A stretch of 64,000 nucleotides of DNA, taken from assembly GCA_000004985.1 (NCBI GenBank), contig GG738921.1; one strand, given 5' to 3'. Shown piece after piece: positions 5,916 to 12,125 of this stretch. Position 1 is the first letter of the stretch; every line of letters starts with the position of its first letter. The notes below the pieces were generated by a model. It did no database searches. It was not told where the DNA came from and saw nothing but the letters and a program-made list of their open reading frames with translations. A program made the translations under genes and the position numbers. Source of the DNA: Naegleria gruberi. Taxonomy: Eukaryota.

Positions 5916-8636
5916 ATGTCGAAAAATCCTTCACAACAACAACAACAACCAGAACACACAATTCAACTCAGTGATAAAGTTGATCAGGTTCTTGAGGAGG
6001 TGCTTCCACAGAGAGATCCTTTCGATTCGAGTTTCTTTGATCCTGTTCATTATATAAATCTTCGTTTCCCTAACGAACAAGCCTTGAATGAAGGTCTTGA
6101 ATCATCCATCATAAAAGTCAAGAAGAAGATTCAACGTGTCGATGAAGATATCCTTGTTGCTGTTCGTAAACAAAGCTCTTCTGGTGTTCAGGCAAGGAGA
6201 GACTTGGAGGAAGCAAGAGAAACCATTCAAAGTTTGTTTAAAAAGATTAACGAAATTAAGTCTAAAGCTGAACAATCCGAACAAATGGTACAAAACATCA
6301 CAAAGGATATTAAATCACTTGACTATGGTAAGAGAAATCTTACTGTTACAATGACTACATTGAAGAGACTTCACATGTTGGTGTCGGCTGTGGATAAGTT
6401 AACACTCTACACACAAAAGAAACAATACAAACAAGTTGCGGAATTATTGGAAGCTGTCAATGAGTTGTTGGCTAATTTTGAAAAGTACAAATCTAGCATT
6501 CCTAAAGTTCAAAATTTATTTATGAGATTTGAAAGTGTTAAAAAGTCACTTCGTGATCAATTGTTCCAAGATTTTAAGAGTTTGGACGCTCACAAAAATT
6601 CAGGTAGAGAAAACGTACAACAACTGTTATCAGAGGCTTGTTTGGCTGTGGATGCTCTTGGAGATTCTATTAGAACTGAACTTATTTCTCAATTTGTTAA
6701 AAATAGAGCATTGCATGTCTATGATATGACATTCAGAGAAGGAAAAGAAGAAAGTAAATTGGAAAGAATTGCAGACAGATACAAATGGCTCATGAAAGTT
6801 TTGAAATCCTATCAAGAACAATTTGGAGATATCTTCCCTAGTTTTTGGTCAGTTCCACAAGAAATTACTGTTGAATTCAGTTTAATGACTAGACAAGCTA
6901 TTGTTCAAATGCTCCAAAGAGGAAACAATGTTTCTGGTAAAACTTTATATACAGTAATCTTGTCAACAATCAAGTTTGAACGTGACATGCAAGAGAGATT
7001 TTATGATCCAGACGAATCTGAAATTTTGGTAGATCTTCAACAACAAAAGAGACAACTTGATCAAGAAGAAAAGCTCTTAAAAGAGGCAGGTCAAAAATTA
7101 CAAGAGGGTAGTCCTGAAGCCAATGACAATCTGAAAAAACAATTCAAGATTATGATCAAACGTAGAGAACTTGAAAAGGTTGAAAATGATATTACTAAAA
7201 CATCAACTCTTGATTCCTTATTGAAAGAGGGTGATGGATCAGCTAGTGGCATTAAAGAAGTTGAAAAGGCAAAGAAGAAACCAAAGAATAAGTATAACTT
7301 TATTGGTTTTATTAGTAGTTGTTTCGAGGAACATATGAGTGTATATATTGAATATGAAGAAGAGTCAATGAGAGAAACTCTTTCAAATATTATCCAAAAA
7401 GAAACTTGGGACATGAACAGCGAATACAGCAGTAGTCAAGATTTGTTCATGTACATTGTGGAATCTATGAAGTCATGCAGTGCTTTATCTAAAAAGAAGA
7501 CCCTCTATGACTTGGTTGAGAAGGTATTCAAAAAGTATCTTGCTGAGTATGCTGGCATTCTTACTAACAAATTACCAAAAATTCAATCTATTGCTTCTTT
7601 AAATTCCAACGCTCCAAATAATGCTGCATCAGGAAATTCTAGTGTTTCGTCACCTGTTGCTGGTGGTTCTGGTGCCTCCTCATTCATTCGTAGTTTGGGT
7701 ATGTCAAATATTTTACCAACAGAAACCTTCTCCGATAAGAAGATTAAGCTTACTGATAGAGAAGAAATGGTTGTATTTTACATTATTAATAGTGCTGACT
7801 ACTGTCAACAAAACATTGAAATGGTACAAGATGAATTGAAAGAAACTCTTCAAGAACCATATTGTGACCAAGTTGACCTTTCTGAAGAACAAGGTCAATT
7901 CTACCATGTTTTGAAGAGTGGTATTGAGGTTCTTGTACATAACTTGATGAATGTCATGGAAAAACAATTTTCTGAAATGATTTCTGTTGCATGGGGTAGT
8001 ATGGATACTGTCGGAGATCAATCTCCTTTCATTTCTGTTATCATGCAAACTCTCAAAGATGCTATACCATTCTTGGCTAAGGCACTTCCTATTACTCACT
8101 TTAAATTCTTCTGTGACAATTTTGTATTGTCATTTATGGCAAACTATATCAACAATATTTACAAGTGTAAGAAGATTTCACTAATGGGAGCTCAACAATT
8201 GTTGGTCAACTCTAGGTCACTTGTAAAATATAGTATTAGAGAATTAATTAATTTGGGTGATAATACAAGATTTGATGAGGATGATTTGGCAAGTTTTGCA
8301 AGGAAAGTTGATGGAAAGGCCCAAAAAATTGAATGTATTTTACGTACCTTATCTGCTCCAAATGATTTGATTGCTGAGACTTATATTAGTCTTGCTCCAA
8401 ACGACCATTCTTTACCTGAACTCACAAAGATTTTGGAATTGAAAGAATTACAAAAGAATGAAAAACAACAAATTCTTGAAGGTTATCAAAAAGAATTAAG
8501 GAAGAGACAAGGTGGAGATGCCAAAGATGCACCTCAAGCTAGTGCTATTGGTACAGCAACAAAGAAAATGGAACAAGCAACAAGTGCTATCATGACTTCA
8601 AGTAAGAGCTTTATCAAAAAGTTTACTAAGGATTAA
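5916..8636 (+). CDS. vps53: VPS53, a GARP-complex subunit. Single exon, 906 aa.
   Basis: The N-terminal region matches the Vps53 N domain: DPVHYINLRFPNEQALNEGLE...VQARRDLEEARETIQSLFKKINEIKSKAEQSEQMVQNITKDIKSLDYGKRNLTVTMTTLKRLHMLV...KKQYKQVAELLEAVNELLANFEKYK. This aligns with human VPS53 DPVEHINAIFP...[39 protein letters not shown]. Confidence 0.9.
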   Translation: MSKNPSQQQQQPEHTIQLSDKVDQVLEEVLPQRDPFDSSFFDPVHYINLRFPNEQALNEGLESSIIKVKKKIQRVDEDILVAVRKQSSSGVQARRDLEEARETIQSLFKKINEIKSKAEQSEQMVQNITKDIKSLDYGKRNLTVTMTTLKRLHMLVSAVDKLTLYTQKKQYKQVAELLEAVNELLANFEKYKSSIPKVQNLFMRFESVKKSLRDQLFQDFKSLDAHKNSGRENVQQLLSEACLAVDALGDSIRTELISQFVKNRALHVYDMTFREGKEESKLERIADRYKWLMKVLKSYQEQFGDIFPSFWSVPQEITVEFSLMTRQAIVQMLQRGNNVSGKTLYTVILSTIKFERDMQERFYDPDESEILVDLQQQKRQLDQEEKLLKEAGQKLQEGSPEANDNLKKQFKIMIKRRELEKVENDITKTSTLDSLLKEGDGSASGIKEVEKAKKKPKNKYNFIGFISSCFEEHMSVYIEYEEESMRETLSNIIQKETWDMNSEYSSSQDLFMYIVESMKSCSALSKKKTLYDLVEKVFKKYLAEYAGILTNKLPKIQSIASLNSNAPNNAASGNSSVSSPVAGGSGASSFIRSLGMSNILPTETFSDKKIKLTDREEMVVFYIINSADYCQQNIEMVQDELKETLQEPYCDQVDLSEEQGQFYHVLKSGIEVLVHNLMNVMEKQFSEMISVAWGSMDTVGDQSPFISVIMQTLKDAIPFLAKALPITHFKFFCDNFVLSFMANYINNIYKCKKISLMGAQQLLVNSRSLVKYSIRELINLGDNTRFDEDDLASFARKVDGKAQKIECILRTLSAPNDLIAETYISLAPNDHSLPELTKILELKELQKNEKQQILEGYQKELRKRQGGDAKDAPQASAIGTATKKMEQATSAIMTSSKSFIKKFTKD

Positions 8637-8667
8637 ACGTTTCTGTTAATATTATATTACAATTTCT

Positions 8668-9761
8668 CTATTTGTTTAACCAAGCATGTGGAGGTATTTT
8701 TCCTGATTCACGAGCATTCACATAGAGTTCCCAAGCTTTTTCAGGATTATAGTTGGCCTCTGATAGACAAATAACAGTAAACTCTCTCGTGAGACCAGAT
8801 AAGGATGAAAACTTTTGTATCAGTTCCTCTTCTGGAGAAATGTTATGGTGTTGATGATTCTGGTGGTGAATCGATGGCTGTTGTTGTGGCTGTGGACTGG
8901 AATAATCTGAATCATGATAATTCTTAGATGAATAGATACTGTTAAGGCGTTCTTCTGCCTCTTTGGATGAAAAACTTAGGTTAGAATTGTTATACGAACT
9001 ATTATACGAAATATTCGAATTATAGTATTCCTCTTCTTCCTCTTGTTCCTCTTCATGATATTCAGGTGAAGAATGTGAAACATTTTTGGAACTGCTACTA
9101 CTAGAAGGTTTAGAAGACTTAGCATGTTTTTCCTCCTGCTTTTTCTTGGATTCTCTTTTCACTTCATTTGCAAGATATAGCAATACATAATTCCTCATCT
9201 TGTCAACTTCCTCCCATTCATGACTCTTCTCTGGAATTAATTCCAATAACCTCTGAATACTATCAATATATCGATACGTATCCCTCAAAGTAAAATGATT
9301 TTGATGAGCCCACTTATTTCTACAATTCCTAGCTTCAAATAATAAATTCCTATCCGTATTAGTCAACCATCTATTTCCCGCAGCAAACGCATCATTCCAA
9401 TGTCGTTGTATAACTCCAATAATATTCTGTGTATCCCAAGCACTTGATGCTGATAAATTAACATTAAATCTCGGAGCAGATGAAGATGATCCTCTTCCAA
9501 ATGTTGTAGCACTCATATAATCACCTCCCTGATCTTGATTACTTGCTGCTTTTTCTACAATTTCCTTCCAGCCTTCTCCATACTCTTCGGACAAGGCTGT
9601 TTTCACCAGAGGTTCATAAATTCTATTAAAATACTTTAAACACCTTCCGATAATATCGTGAATCTAAAATGTAACTTCCGTTTTGATCAAAAAGAGTCTT
9701 TAATATTACATCATACCTTTTGTTGATCGAGAGTTTCATCCTTCTTGTCGTGTTTTCCCAT
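8668..9761 (-). CDS. Protein with a HEPN-like Rx4-6H motif and a C-terminal TAP-C (NXF1 C-terminal, UBA-like) domain. Two exons: join(8668..9663, 9717..9761).
   Basis: Exon 1 encodes MGKHDKKDETLDQQK. The intron is 9664-9716 on the minus strand (GTATGA...TTTTAG). Exon 2 is in frame (996 nt). The motif LLFEARNCRNKWAHQNHF (encoded near 9305-9345) fits the HEPN Rx4-6H signature. The C-terminus ELIQKFSSLSGLTREFTVICLSEANYNPEKAWELYVNARESGKIPPHAW matches the TAP-C consensus (...TgMnlewskkCLeennWdlekAlqlF..lkakgkIPpeAF). Confidence 0.7.
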
Positions 9762-9834: not shown

Positions 9835-12125
9835 TCAATAAAAAAAAAATTCTAATACTGTTTCACCATATTCGTTAAGCATTTCCAATTTAAAATCAGA
9901 ATCATTCTTTAACAAATCATCTGCAAAATATAATGCATACTCATCATATTGAGCTACCTCTTTCATGAATGACTTGTCTATTTTGAATGACACATCAATA
10001 TATTCCAATACTAAAACGTTTTGAATGACTGCTTCAATTACAATTTCCTTATCCATCTGTAATGATGAATCAAGAGAAAATAATACGAATCCATCATTTT
10101 GCAATGCAATCTTTACAATTTCTCTATCTTTTTGGAATTTTGGATCAACGTATTCCAATGCTGCTCCATCAATTTCAACCAATTGTAAAACAAAATCTCT
10201 ATCTTTCTTCCAAGATTCGTCTACATATGTCAATGCATGCACATTATTGCCTACTGCTGCTTTGATAATGTCTGGATCATTTTTGAAATCTTCACTCACA
10301 TATTCCAATGCTGTTCCCTTCTGTTTAACTGTTTCTAAAATGAATTTCTTATCATTCCTTATTAATTCATCGGCTTGTTGAATAGATGGTCGAAACTTCT
10401 TAATAACCTCTAATACAAGCTCCTTATCATTTTTATAATAATTTGGAGCTCTTGGTAAGATGGAAGCAGAATATAACTCCTCAATAAAATCATTCTGTGC
10501 AAACTCATTGATTGACTTCACTAGTGTATCTCTTGAAGTTTCGAATATTTCCTCAATGTTTTCAGTGAAATCGTTCTCACAGAAATCTAGATTGGATAGT
10601 GCTATTTGAAGAGCTTCCTCAACATGACTAAATTGTTTCATGATAAATTCTCTATTCCTTATTTTTTTCAATTCAATTCCTAGTTGTTCAATAACTTTTA
10701 AATTATTTTCAATATCATTCTTCAAAGATTCAACACAAGCCTGAAGCGATAATTTAAATCTTTCAACTGTCAATTGAATAATTTGTTCATCATGTTTAAG
10801 AGATGAATCTATTTCGAAATAGGCATTAGCATTCTGTTGAATAGCTGTTTCGATTATTTCTCTATCCTTCTTAAATGTAGCATTATTAACATAGGCAAGA
10901 GACGTTCCATCCTCTCTGACTGCTTCTAATACTATTTCTCTATCTATTTCATTAATATATTTCAATAAATATCCTTTCCTGTTAACAACTTGCATTATGA
11001 ATTGTCTATCCATTCTCAACAATTCATTATTTTCAAATGGATTGCATTTAAAATAAACATCACTAAATGAAAGGCATGCCAATATAATATCTCTATTATG
11101 AGTAAAATTATCATTAATACCTATTGGATATGATTTAAAAAAATCTGATGATAATCCATTTGTCTTGAATATTCTACTCAATATTTCACTTGCATTTGGC
11201 CTCATTTCATAATCGTCATTCAACATGGAAATTAGGATTTTGAAAAATTCAGTCCAACCTTCAATATCATCATCCAAATTAGCTTCCTTAATTATTTGTG
11301 AAATATTATTATTTTCCATGTGAATGATTAAATATTGATATATATCATCTAAATGATGTTGAATATCTAGGGATTCATTTTTTGGAAATATTACATTTAA
11401 TAATGATCTACCTAAACTCCAAATATCACTCCTGAAAGATATTAAACCTTGATTTAGGCATTCAGGTGCAATAAATCCAAAAGTCCCACATATGAAAGAA
11501 GAGGAAGAAGAACTCTCTGATAAATTTGATGGGTTTGAATCAACATCTTGAACTTTTGTAACAGTGACACCAATTCTATCAGAAGGTATTGGACATGCAT
11601 TCTCTCTAACACTTCCCAAATCTCCAATAATTGTCTCTATATGGAGAATATTATCCTCTTTTTTGGTAATTATTGTTTCTTGGAGGAATAAATTGTCTGG
11701 TTTGATATCACAATGAATTAAATTGTTATCATGAAGAGATTTTAGTCCATGACTGGTTTTAATTAGAATTTGAAGTAAATTTCCCAAATAGAGTTTAGGT
11801 TTCAAATTTCTATAATTAGACAAATTAATACCTCTATATTTGGAAATAATAATAGCTTCATTTCCATTCTTTTCAGTGATTTCATAAGTTAATATATTTG
11901 CATTGTGCATTTGTTTAGCTTTCATATTATGTTCAATTTCTCCATAATTATAAATTTAATTTTAACAACATAATGACCATTTAAATTTACATCGGTTCCA
12001 ATATATTTAGATTTGAATACAATAATACCGTCATTTCTTGCAAGTTTTAATGGTTCTTCAATTTGTAGTGCCAAGTGTTGGATGGTGATCTCCGATTTTG
12101 TGTGAATGGTTGAAATTAAACTCAT
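9835..12125 (-). CDS. Atypical protein kinase fused to a C-terminal array of DUF4116-like repeats. The frame is interrupted near 11922-11925.
   Basis: N-terminal ORF (12125..11922) with YVVKIK (beta3 Lys) but no classical Gly loop. Catalytic loop HCDIKPDN (HRD replaced by HCD), IGDLGS (DFG replaced by DLG), and APE (FIAPE). Then at least 8 repeats of the form DxEiVleAVkqnGxaLeYvsxefkkDkeiv, typical of DUF4116. There is a +1 frame change between ...MEKLNII* and MKAKQMHNAN. Confidence 0.65.

What the first reader, a model, noticed from the sequence alone, without database searches (positions are those of the whole stretch)
8668..9761. HEPN-like Rx4-6H RNase motif combined with an NXF1-type TAP-C (FG-nucleoporin-binding) domain
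A two-exon minus-strand gene encodes ...LLFEARNCRNKWAHQNHF..., a textbook HEPN Rx4-6H signature. Its C-terminus matches the TAP-C/UBA-like domain of the mRNA export receptor NXF1 almost residue for residue (LSGLTREFTVICLSEANYNPEKAWELYVNARESGKIPPHAW). In NXF1, TAP-C docks onto FG nucleoporins. The only well-known HEPN nuclease at the nuclear pore is yeast Swt1, which is PIN+HEPN and has no TAP-C. The combination seen here suggests a nuclear-pore-tethered HEPN endoribonuclease acting in mRNA surveillance. This architecture is not a standard described one.
Basis: partly seen in the sequence, partly recalled or inferred. Interest (0 to 1): 0.65.

Follow-up and report, generated by a model that had tools for sequence, protein, structure and literature searches.

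The report
Naegleria HEPN RNase fused to TAP-C
A real but mis-annotated Naegleria gruberi gene joins a bacterial-type HEPN ribonuclease domain with an intact active site to the small C-terminal domain that the mRNA export receptor NXF1 uses to bind nuclear pores; the combination is found only in Naegleria and Willaertia, and pore tethering is plausible but unproven.

Summary

- The organism is Naegleria gruberi (Heterolobosea), not an amoebozoan.
- The intron is 53 nt (9716..9664), giving 346 aa.
- TAP-C is 25-29% identical to human NXF1, not 'residue for residue'.
- The public model (XP_002669924.1, 248 aa) has a spurious frame-shifting intron that deletes TAP-C. This probably explains why a 2013 survey called the Naegleria HEPN a 'solo'.

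The fusion occurs only in N. gruberi, N. fowleri, N. lovaniensis and Willaertia magna. Acrasis and Balamuthia have HEPN-only versions. The closest bacterial relatives are N-termini of the HmaC defence ATPase.

Pore tethering is unproven. All four fusions carry Leu where FG-binding domains have Ala, Gly or Ser, as does fly Nxf2, which lost FG binding. Verdict: a new variant of a known kind, of moderate interest.

The parts
9717..9761 (-). Exon 1 (ATG at 9761-9759; codons 1-15, MGKHDKKDETLDQQK)
   Evidence: The ETLDQQK end is conserved in N. lovaniensis and N. fowleri.
9664..9716 (-). Intron, 53 nt, phase 0, GTATGA...TTTTAG
   Evidence: One search shows it is one of two in-frame options. It is chosen because IHDIIGRCLK is conserved coding sequence in all homologs, because the HEPN profile then covers positions 1-114 of 115, and because the N. 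lovaniensis intron sits at the identical site with the same GTATGA donor. No cDNA evidence was available.
8668..9663 (-). Exon 2 (codons 16-346 plus stop TAG at 8670-8668)
   Evidence: Uninterrupted ORF.
9235..9645 (-). Swt1-family HEPN domain (Pfam match aa 22-158; the helical core in the model spans aa 13-198, i.e. about 9115-9725 across the intron)
9304..9321 (-). Catalytic Rx4H motif R130-N131-K-W133-A134-H135
   Evidence: Invariant in 92 of 92 aligned homologs. It lies at the end of helix 3 (117-134) and the start of the loop to helix 4 (141-156), which is the canonical HEPN placement described in PMC3710099.
8857..9114 (-). Disordered low-complexity linker (aa 199-284), Ser/Glu/Asn/Gln-rich
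   Evidence: pLDDT is mostly below 50. Identity between Naegleria species is 22-30%.
8908..8937 (-). Short conserved motif in the linker, (I/V)YS..N(F/Y)H.S (aa 258-267)
   Evidence: Y259, S260, N263, H265 and S267 are invariant among the three Naegleria sequences, inside an otherwise unalignable linker. Function unknown.
8680..8826 (-). TAP-C / UBA-like domain (aa 295-343)
8725..8751 (-). FG-pocket-equivalent segment: Y320-N321 (human W594-D595) to L328 (human A602)
   Evidence: Ungapped alignment to 1oai. Leu is present at this position in all four fusion orthologs. The significance of A602/G583 versus L825 comes from 10.1101/608273.
8907..8995 (-). Spurious 89-nt 'intron 2' of the public model XP_002669924.1; in reality it is coding linker sequence
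   Evidence: Exact reconstruction of the 248-aa public product. 89 nt is not a multiple of 3, so the frame shifts, a stop follows after 20 codons, and TAP-C is lost.

Best explanation
**What it is.** This is a genuine, conserved Naegleria gruberi gene, truncated in the public annotation as NAEGRDRAFT_75118. It encodes a 346-aa protein with two domains. The N-terminal domain is a Swt1-family HEPN domain with every family-invariant active-site residue intact. It descends by horizontal transfer from the N-terminal HEPN module of bacterial HmaC/Ava_2192 defence ATPases. A disordered tether of about 100 residues connects it to an NXF1-type TAP-C (UBA-like) domain.

**Most likely mechanism.**
1. The single HEPN domain homodimerises and builds a composite Rx4H site. 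That site cuts single-stranded RNA without metal ions. This step is inferred from established HEPN enzymology.
2. The TAP-C domain does not touch RNA. It acts as a localisation or partner-docking module on a flexible leash. This step is inferred from the anatomy.
3. The leading candidate partner is FG-repeat nucleoporins. A dimer would present two TAP-C domains, matching the two FG-binding sites that NXF1 needs. This would place the RNase at the nuclear pore, where it could destroy foreign or aberrant RNA in transit. This step is inferred by analogy and is the weakest link.

**Shown versus not shown.** Shown here: gene structure, both domain identities and folds, active-site conservation, bacterial ancestry, and lineage restriction of the fusion. 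Not shown: RNase activity, dimerisation, FG binding, localisation, and the substrate.
For: - **Domains.** Both pass curated thresholds in all four fusion proteins.
- **Fold.** The AF2 model is confident for both domains. The HEPN fold matches Swt1-C and AbiF, and the TAP-C fold matches NXF1, Mex67 and Nxf2 UBA.
- **Active site.** The Rx4H motif is at the canonical structural position. R130, N131, W133, A134, H135 and Q136 are invariant in 92 of 92 sequences; E125 in 91 and D92 in 88.
- **Ancestry.** Bacterial relatives at 30-34% identity are N-termini of HmaC AAA+ ATPases of the Hma candidate defence system. This agrees with PMC3710099 Table 1, which also predicts that the eukaryotic copies are active RNases.
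- **Conservation of the fusion.** It is retained across Naegleria and Willaertia although TAP-C has diverged to 33-45% identity, so the domain is under selection.
- **Rarity.** An exhaustive profile search of 1.84 billion representative proteins listed no other protein that pairs the two domains among its 150 best hits, where a two-domain match should rank.
- **FG-binding precedent.** The TAP-C fold, the conserved Cys-Leu, the aromatic residue at the W594 position and the C-terminal IPxxAF are retained. The pocket-closing salt-bridge pair of Nxf2 (E814-K829) is not reproduced, because Ala occupies the K829-equivalent position (my mapping, which assumes the fly Nxf2/human alignment is ungapped). 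From my own knowledge, Bachi et al. 2000 showed that the C-terminal part of TAP suffices for nuclear-rim association.
Against: - **FG pocket.** All four orthologs have Leu at the position of human A602, yeast G583 and Chaetomium Ser. Drosophila Nxf2 also has Leu (L825) there and does not bind FG repeats (10.1101/608273 and 10.1101/609693).
- **NWD loop.** The Asp is N, A, V or D in the four orthologs, and N. gruberi has Tyr in place of Trp.
- **Rate of change.** TAP-C evolves about twice as fast as the HEPN domain.
- **Other contexts.** TAP_C also occurs outside NXF proteins, in proteins with 2-4 tandem copies and unknown partners. The Nxf2-Panoramix and Mex67-Hpr1 precedents show this fold can bind partner helices or ubiquitin-related ligands instead.
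- **Missing evidence.** No transcript, localisation, enzymatic or interaction data exist.
Confidence: 0.4

Rival explanations
1. The enzyme is the same, but the TAP-C domain has been repurposed. The HEPN RNase is active, and its UBA-like domain binds a partner protein's amphipathic helix or a ubiquitin-like ligand, as Drosophila Nxf2 UBA binds Panoramix and yeast Mex67 UBA binds Hpr1. It does not bind FG repeats. TAP-C would then couple the RNase to an adaptor, sensor or inhibitor, for example in antiviral, anti-transposon or stress-induced RNA decay, and the protein need not sit at the pore.
For: - Leu at the A602-equivalent position in all four orthologs, as in non-FG-binding Nxf2.
- The NWD Asp is not conserved.
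- Position 600, which is L823 on the Panoramix-binding face of Nxf2, is hydrophobic in all four (W, L, L, M), where human NXF1 has Ala (this mapping assumes the fly Nxf2/human alignment is ungapped).
- The fast evolution of TAP-C (33% identity against 57-62% for HEPN) suits co-evolution with a lineage-specific partner.
- The ancestry lies in a defence system.
Against: - The Nxf2 pocket-closing salt bridge is not reproduced.
- Chaetomium Mex67 also has Leu at position 600, so that position does not discriminate.
- The effect of L825 on FG binding is described only as 'may hinder'.
- No candidate partner has been identified.
- FG binding remains the only function generally attributed to the family.
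Confidence: 0.3
2. The HEPN domain is a non-catalytic RNA-binding or sensing module, as proposed for the HEPN domains of yeast Swt1. The protein would then be an RNA adaptor, for instance an export or retention factor that links RNA to whatever TAP-C binds, and not a nuclease.
For: - The domain belongs to the same Pfam family as Swt1's HEPN, and its best structural match is Swt1-C.
- PMC3710099 regards Swt1's HEPN as probably inactive.
- TAP-C is otherwise known from export receptors.
Against: - Unlike Swt1, this protein keeps the whole Rx4H constellation that is invariant in the active bacterial clade.
- PMC3710099 explicitly classes the Naegleria, dictyostelid and Daphnia versions as catalytically active.
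- There is no sequence-level similarity to Swt1-C in the PDB.
- There is no PIN domain that could supply catalysis instead.
Confidence: 0.1
3. The fusion is an artefact. The HEPN and TAP-C parts would belong to separate genes or transcripts, as the public N. gruberi model implies by ending before TAP-C, or the open frame through the linker would be accidental.
For: - The public RefSeq model XP_002669924.1 splices out 8995..8907 and terminates before TAP-C.
- No transcript evidence could be obtained.
Against: - A single uninterrupted ORF runs from the HEPN domain through the linker to a TAP_C domain that scores above threshold.
- The same collinear architecture is annotated independently in N. 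fowleri, N. lovaniensis and W. magna.
- The N. lovaniensis gene has only the one 5' intron.
- A conserved linker motif lies inside the supposed intron.
- A second N. gruberi-like genome from a metagenome keeps the frame open with only 2-4 amino-acid changes.
Confidence: 0.03

Closest known systems
Bacterial HmaC / Ava_2192-type HEPN-AAA+ (DUF499) ATPases of the Hma candidate anti-phage system
   Same: This is the closest sequence relative of the HEPN domain: 30-34% identity over the whole domain, with the same WDTQ...W.....ELR..RNKWAHQ..F...D.YR..D framework. The active-site residues are identical.
   Different: The bacterial proteins continue into a roughly 950-aa AAA+ ATPase (PADLOC HmaC) and sit in restriction-modification-like operons (PMC3710099). 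The Naegleria protein has no ATPase; it has a eukaryotic disordered linker and TAP-C instead.
'Solo' eukaryotic Swt1-family HEPN proteins (Naegleria, dictyostelids, Daphnia; Anantharaman et al. 2013) and the Acrasis kona and Balamuthia homologs found here
   Same: The same HEPN clade, predicted to be catalytically active and acquired from bacteria. They share the N-terminal helix (FN.VYEPF) and the C-terminal KMR.Y.L..AN.VK helix.
   Different: They lack TAP-C. The Naegleria entry in the 2013 survey was listed as a solo, most probably because the N. gruberi gene model is truncated (that link is my inference).
Yeast Swt1 (PIN + HEPN endoribonuclease associated with nuclear pore complexes)
   Different: Swt1 cleaves with its PIN domain, and its HEPN dyad is thought to be inactive. 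It has no TAP-C. The Naegleria protein has no PIN domain, has one HEPN domain with an intact motif, and shows no detectable sequence similarity to Swt1-C. It is not an ortholog.
NXF1/TAP and Mex67 C-terminal UBA-like (TAP-C) domain
   Same: Pfam TAP_C match above threshold. The fold is the same three-helix bundle plus short C-terminal helix, superposing at 1.4-1.9 A. The conserved Cys-Leu, an aromatic residue in the NWD-like loop, and the C-terminal IP..AF are retained.
   Different: The RRM, LRR and NTF2-like domains are absent. Identity is 24-29%. Leu replaces the small pocket residue (A602, G583 or Ser), and the NWD Asp is not conserved. FG binding is untested.
Drosophila Nxf2 UBA domain (SFiNX/Pandas complex)
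   Different: Nxf2 keeps the full NXF architecture. Its pocket is closed by the E814-K829 salt bridge, which the Naegleria domain cannot form because Ala sits at the K829-equivalent position (my ungapped mapping).

Membership tests
HEPN superfamily, Swt1-like family (Pfam PF18731) | Profile match above the curated gathering score | tested here: met
   65.9 bits against a cut-off of 27.5, covering profile positions 1-114 of 115.
HEPN superfamily, Swt1-like family (Pfam PF18731) | Four-helix up-and-down core made of two alpha-hairpins | tested here: met
HEPN superfamily, Swt1-like family (Pfam PF18731) | [quoted passage not shown] | tested here: met
   R130-x4-H135 lies at the end of helix 117-134. 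The placement criterion is from PMC3710099. The motif is invariant in 92 of 92 sequences, and D92, just before helix 2, is present in 88 of 92.
HEPN superfamily, Swt1-like family (Pfam PF18731) | Metal-independent endoRNase activity from a dimeric composite site | not testable with these tools
   This needs biochemistry or a multimer prediction. Only monomer prediction was available.
Swt1 orthologs (PIN + HEPN dyad) | N-terminal PIN endonuclease domain and a dyad of HEPN domains | tested here: not met
   Pfam finds only one HEPN_Swt1 domain and TAP_C, with no PIN domain. There is no sequence similarity to Swt1-C in the PDB.
HmaC / Ava_2192 HEPN-AAA+ defence ATPases | HEPN fused to a DUF499-type AAA+ ATPase within a restriction-modification-like operon | tested here: not met
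   The HEPN domain alone gives no PADLOC hit, whereas the bacterial relatives P0018 and P0110 match HmaC. This is a eukaryotic gene flanked by Vps53 and a kinase. It is related by descent of the HEPN module only.
TAP_C / NXF-type UBA-like domain (Pfam PF03943) | Profile match above the gathering score and a three-helix UBA-like fold with a short C-terminal helix | tested here: met
FG-nucleoporin-binding TAP-C (functional subclass: NXF1, Mex67) | Small residue at the pocket position (human A602, yeast G583, Chaetomium Ser) that leaves room for the FxFG phenylalanine | tested here: not met
   L328 in N. gruberi, and Leu in N. lovaniensis, N. fowleri and W. magna. The criterion is from 10.1101/608273, where the effect of Leu is described as 'may hinder'.
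FG-nucleoporin-binding TAP-C (functional subclass: NXF1, Mex67) | Conserved NWD loop (human N593-W594-D595; from my own knowledge, W594A and D595R impair nucleoporin binding) | tested here: inconclusive
   The loop reads NYN in N. gruberi, QWA and QWV in N. lovaniensis and N. fowleri, and KWD in Willaertia. The aromatic residue is kept and the Asp is not.
FG-nucleoporin-binding TAP-C (functional subclass: NXF1, Mex67) | Open hydrophobic pocket (no occluding salt bridge) and measurable FG-repeat binding | not testable with these tools
By sequence, and assuming an ungapped fly Nxf2/human alignment, the Nxf2 E814-K829 pair is not reproduced because Ala sits at the K829-equivalent position. Binding needs a pull-down, ITC or NMR experiment.
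NXF/Mex67 mRNA export receptors | RRM + LRR + NTF2-like + TAP-C architecture, heterodimerising with p15/Mtr2 | tested here: not met
   Only the TAP_C domain is present; there are no LRR or NTF2-like hits.

The most novel reading that the evidence does not exclude
Naegleria and Willaertia have converted a bacterial anti-phage HEPN RNase into a resident nuclease of the nuclear pore by fusing it to an FG-binding TAP-C domain. The homodimer, carrying two TAP-C domains, would partition into the FG meshwork like a transport receptor and cleave foreign RNAs (for example from giant viruses or transposons) or unlicensed RNAs in transit. That would be a pore-embedded innate-immune or quality-control RNase, built independently of the Swt1 solution used by fungi and animals. 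If Naegleria also truly lacks a canonical Mex67, as Kramer et al. 2010 could not find one, this could be one of the few TAP-C proteins in the cell, which would raise the question of how its mRNA export and surveillance are organised.
Probability: 0.2. Interest if true: 0.75.

Novelty: new variant of a known kind. Interest (0 to 1): 0.45.

Why it matters
If the TAP-C domain really docks on FG nucleoporins, this would be the first case of a catalytically competent HEPN RNase targeted to the nuclear pore by a transport-receptor module. It would also be a clear example of a prokaryotic defence nuclease domesticated by domain fusion in a eukaryote, convergent with yeast Swt1.

The hypothesis is directly testable with two small recombinant domains.

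There are practical consequences as well:
- The reference N. gruberi annotation (XP_002669924.1 / D2W176) is wrong at both ends and hides the fusion. That probably misled the 2013 HEPN survey into listing it as a solo domain.
- The family is restricted to the Naegleria/Willaertia lineage, which includes the pathogen N. fowleri, and no animal homolog of the fusion was found.

If TAP-C instead binds a private partner, the protein adds a second case, after fly Nxf2, of this domain being exapted away from nuclear export.

Tried and rejected
1. **First gene model (83-nt intron, 336 aa).** This is the intron the public model uses and the one I tried first. I rejected it in favour of the 53-nt intron after aligning homologs.
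2. **Split TAP-C exon downstream of the HEPN-only metagenomic homolog P0005.** None was found; the gene ends in an acidic tail.
3. **Transcript evidence from the short Logan and ENA contigs.** They are genomic, start inside the intron, and say nothing about splicing.
4. **Third word-indexed homology search with a TAP-C profile.** The aim was to find Naegleria NXF1/Mex67 and survey the pocket residue across NXF proteins. It returned only fragments of 105 aa or less, so neither question was answered.
5. **PDB search with the TAP-C profile.** It was swamped by spurious repeated partial matches to designer PPR proteins, so no residue-level alignment to yeast Mex67 or fly Nxf2 was obtained. The mapping of Nxf2 residues therefore assumes an ungapped alignment.
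6. **PDB sequence search with the HEPN profile.** No relatives were found.
8. **Structure libraries.** The viral library gave nothing. The AFDB library was unavailable.
10. **Primary papers on the NWD loop and on the two-site rule** (Suyama 2000, Braun 2002). Neither is held. Those points rest on my own knowledge and on citations.
11. **PADLOC on the isolated HEPN domain.** No hit.
12. **Paralogs in the window.** None found.
13. **Gene-neighbourhood logic.** The flanking genes (Vps53 and a kinase) are unrelated, as expected for a eukaryote.
Full report
**1. The observation**

The minus strand between 8668 and 9761 carries a two-exon gene.

Two in-frame GT..AG introns are possible after the 45-nt first exon, of 53 nt and 83 nt. 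The 53-nt intron (9716..9664) is correct, for three reasons:
- The ten codons it keeps (IHDIIGRCLK) align to IHDLLGRCLK in N. lovaniensis and N. fowleri and to related sequence in every other homolog.
- With them, the Pfam HEPN_Swt1 match extends to profile positions 1-114 of 115 and the score rises to 65.9 bits.
- The independently annotated N. lovaniensis gene has a single phase-0 intron at exactly this site, with the same GTATGA donor.

The product is 346 aa. No transcript evidence was available. The two short public contigs that carry the gene are genomic and start inside the intron.

**2. Organism and annotation**

The neighbouring ORF is an exact match to Naegleria gruberi XP_002669878.1. 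The window is therefore from N. gruberi (Heterolobosea, Discoba), not from an amoebozoan.

The public model of this gene (NAEGRDRAFT_75118, XP_002669924.1, D2W176) is only 248 aa. I reconstructed it exactly. It uses the 83-nt first intron and adds a second intron, 8995..8907. That intron is 89 nt, so it shifts the frame, and a stop follows 20 codons later. The whole TAP-C domain is lost, along with a conserved linker motif.

The 2013 HEPN survey lists an active Swt1-family HEPN transferred from bacteria to 'Naegleria, Dictyosteliida, Daphnia' and states that 'all eukaryotes are solos' (PMC3710099). The truncated N. gruberi model probably explains why the fusion was missed; that link is my inference.

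**3. Domain identities**

- **Sequence.** Pfam gives HEPN_Swt1 (aa 22-158, E=4.9e-18) and TAP_C (aa 295-343, E=2.5e-11), both above their gathering scores. Direct phmmer against the PDB finds human NXF1 TAP-C (1oai, E=3e-5 with the isolated domain).
- **Model.** An AlphaFold2 model built on a 92-sequence alignment is confident for both globular parts. pLDDT is above 90 for about aa 11-55 and for most of aa 90-200, and about 95 for aa 290-340. The linker and an internal insert (aa 61-88) are disordered.

**4. Catalytic competence**

The motif is R130-N-K-W-A-H135. In the model it occupies the last turn of helix 117-134, and His135 opens the loop to helix 141-156. [quoted passage not shown]

Across 92 homologs, R130, N131, W133, A134, H135 and Q136 are invariant. 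E125 is present in 91, W104 and D143 in 90, and D92 in 88.

**5. Ancestry and distribution**

- **Bacterial relatives.** With an HEPN-only profile, the nearest non-eukaryotic relatives (30-34% identity over the whole domain) are bacterial proteins that continue into a DUF499-type AAA+ ATPase. PADLOC identifies these as HmaC of the Hma candidate anti-phage system. This is the Ava_2192 family of the 2013 survey.
- **Exhaustive search.** A search with the full-length profile against 1.84 billion representative proteins gave 696 hits. Among the 150 best, where a two-domain match should rank, only the Naegleria cluster and Willaertia magna match across both domains.
- **The fusion.** It is present in N. 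gruberi, N. fowleri (XP_044563058.1), N. lovaniensis and W. magna.
- **HEPN-only relatives.** These occur in Acrasis kona (also a heterolobosean), in Balamuthia mandrillaris (Amoebozoa) and in an unidentified eukaryote from a metagenome, which I checked for a missed downstream exon.
- **Inference.** TAP-C was most likely added in the Naegleria/Willaertia lineage after the HEPN gene was acquired. Loss in Acrasis is not excluded.
- **Rates of change.** Between N. gruberi and N. lovaniensis the HEPN domain is 57-62% identical, TAP-C 33% and the linker 22-30%.

**6. Does the TAP-C domain bind FG nucleoporins?**

In favour of FG binding:
- The family assignment and the fold both hold.
- The conserved Cys-Leu, an aromatic residue at the W594 position and the C-terminal IP..AF are retained.

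Against FG binding:
- The two Nxf2 papers state that human A602 and yeast G583 are small so as to leave room for the FxFG phenylalanine. Drosophila Nxf2 has L825 there, plus a pocket-closing E814-K829 salt bridge. It does not bind FG repeats and uses its UBA domain to hold a Panoramix helix.
- In the ungapped alignment to 1oai, the N. gruberi residue at the A602 position is L328. The other three fusion proteins also have Leu, and Chaetomium Mex67 has Ser.
- The Asp of the NWD loop is N, A, V or D in the four orthologs.
- The salt-bridge pair is not reproduced, since Ala occupies the K829-equivalent position. This mapping is mine and assumes the fly Nxf2/human alignment is ungapped.
- TAP_C also occurs in non-NXF contexts with 2-4 tandem copies, where position 602 is A, T, L, M or R.

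I therefore rate FG binding as plausible but not established.

**7. Mechanism**

- **Best-supported reading.** This is an active HEPN endoRNase that, like other single-HEPN enzymes, must dimerise to form its site (established HEPN enzymology, not tested here). It carries TAP-C on a flexible leash of about 100 residues as a targeting module.
- **Link to the two-site rule.** A dimer would display two TAP-C domains. NXF1 function requires two FG-binding sites (Braun et al. 2002, as cited). This connection is my inference.
- **Likely role.** The leading hypothesis is docking at FG nucleoporins, which would place the RNase at the pore. Given the domain's defence-system ancestry and the 2013 prediction that such eukaryotic copies are antiviral RNases, a defence role is at least as likely as mRNA quality control.
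- **Main rival.** TAP-C may have been repurposed, as in Nxf2, to bind a lineage-specific partner.
- **Weaker rivals.** A non-catalytic HEPN domain, or a gene-model artefact. Both are poorly supported.

**8. Comparison with known systems, and novelty**

- **Not Swt1.** There is no PIN domain, there is one HEPN domain with an intact motif, and there is no sequence similarity to Swt1-C.
- **Not an NXF protein.** There are no LRR or NTF2-like domains.
- **Not an HmaC.** There is no ATPase.
- **What it is.** A member of the known eukaryotic 'solo' Swt1-family HEPN clade that has gained a known targeting domain.
- **Record in the literature.** Automated databases already record the domain pair for the N. 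fowleri, N. lovaniensis and W. magna proteins (UniRef names two of them 'TAP-C domain-containing protein'). I found no paper that describes or interprets it.
- **Rating.** A new variant of a known kind. It is moderately interesting, lineage-restricted, easy to test, and its most exciting reading remains unproven.

**9. Not resolved**

- Whether Naegleria has a canonical NXF1/Mex67. Kramer et al. 2010 could not recognise one, Serpeloni et al. 2011 is uninformative on this point, and my last homology search failed to address it.
- The donor of the TAP-C domain.
- The function of the conserved linker motif.
- All biochemical properties.

Noticed in passing
window 8907-8995 and 9634-9663 (minus strand): The RefSeq/UniProt N. 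gruberi model XP_002669924.1 / D2W176 (248 aa) is wrong at both ends. Its over-long first intron drops 10 conserved HEPN residues, and a spurious 89-nt frame-shifting second intron deletes the TAP-C domain.
   Followed up: yes
window 8908-8937 (aa 258-267): A short motif, (I/V)YS..N(F/Y)H.S, is conserved among the three Naegleria species inside an otherwise unalignable, disordered linker. It could be a docking or modification site, or a cis-ligand for TAP-C. Its function is unknown.
   Followed up: partly
window 8636-8668: The Vps53 gene (5916-8636, plus strand; Vps53_N E=2.4e-93) and the HEPN-TAP-C gene converge, with only 31 nt between their stop codons. Their 3' UTRs must be extremely short or overlap.
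   Followed up: no
window 9835-11925 (minus strand): The upstream neighbour is a protein kinase fused to nine DUF4116 repeats. The kinase match starts at profile position 54, so the N-terminal part of the kinase domain probably lies in an unlisted upstream exon.
   Followed up: no
window 8680-8826 compared with 9235-9645: Among orthologs, the TAP-C domain evolves about twice as fast as the HEPN domain (33% against 57-62% identity between N. gruberi and N. lovaniensis). N. gruberi alone has Tyr in place of the otherwise conserved Trp of the NWD-like loop.
   Followed up: partly
proteins P0108, P0109, P0112, P0114: Some proteins consist largely of 2-4 tandem TAP_C domains without an NXF architecture, for example a 603-aa protein of the fungus Meristemomyces frigidus with four copies. 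TAP_C is therefore not confined to export receptors, and the A602-equivalent position varies in these copies (A, T, L, M, R).
   Followed up: partly
protein P0105 (Acrasis kona KAL0486050.1) and locus L002 6001-6744: Other HEPN-only eukaryotic homologs carry different C-terminal tails. In Acrasis it is a roughly 80-aa region with no Pfam hit; in the metagenomic homolog it is an acidic DSDAMDFDEY end. This suggests repeated, lineage-specific decoration of the same acquired RNase.
   Followed up: no
alignment A5 against the PDB: A technical caution. A TAP-C profile gives very low whole-sequence E-values against designer pentatricopeptide-repeat proteins, through many repeated 19-residue partial matches (LEEALELFEEMKEKGIVP). 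These are spurious and should not be read as homology.
   Followed up: yes
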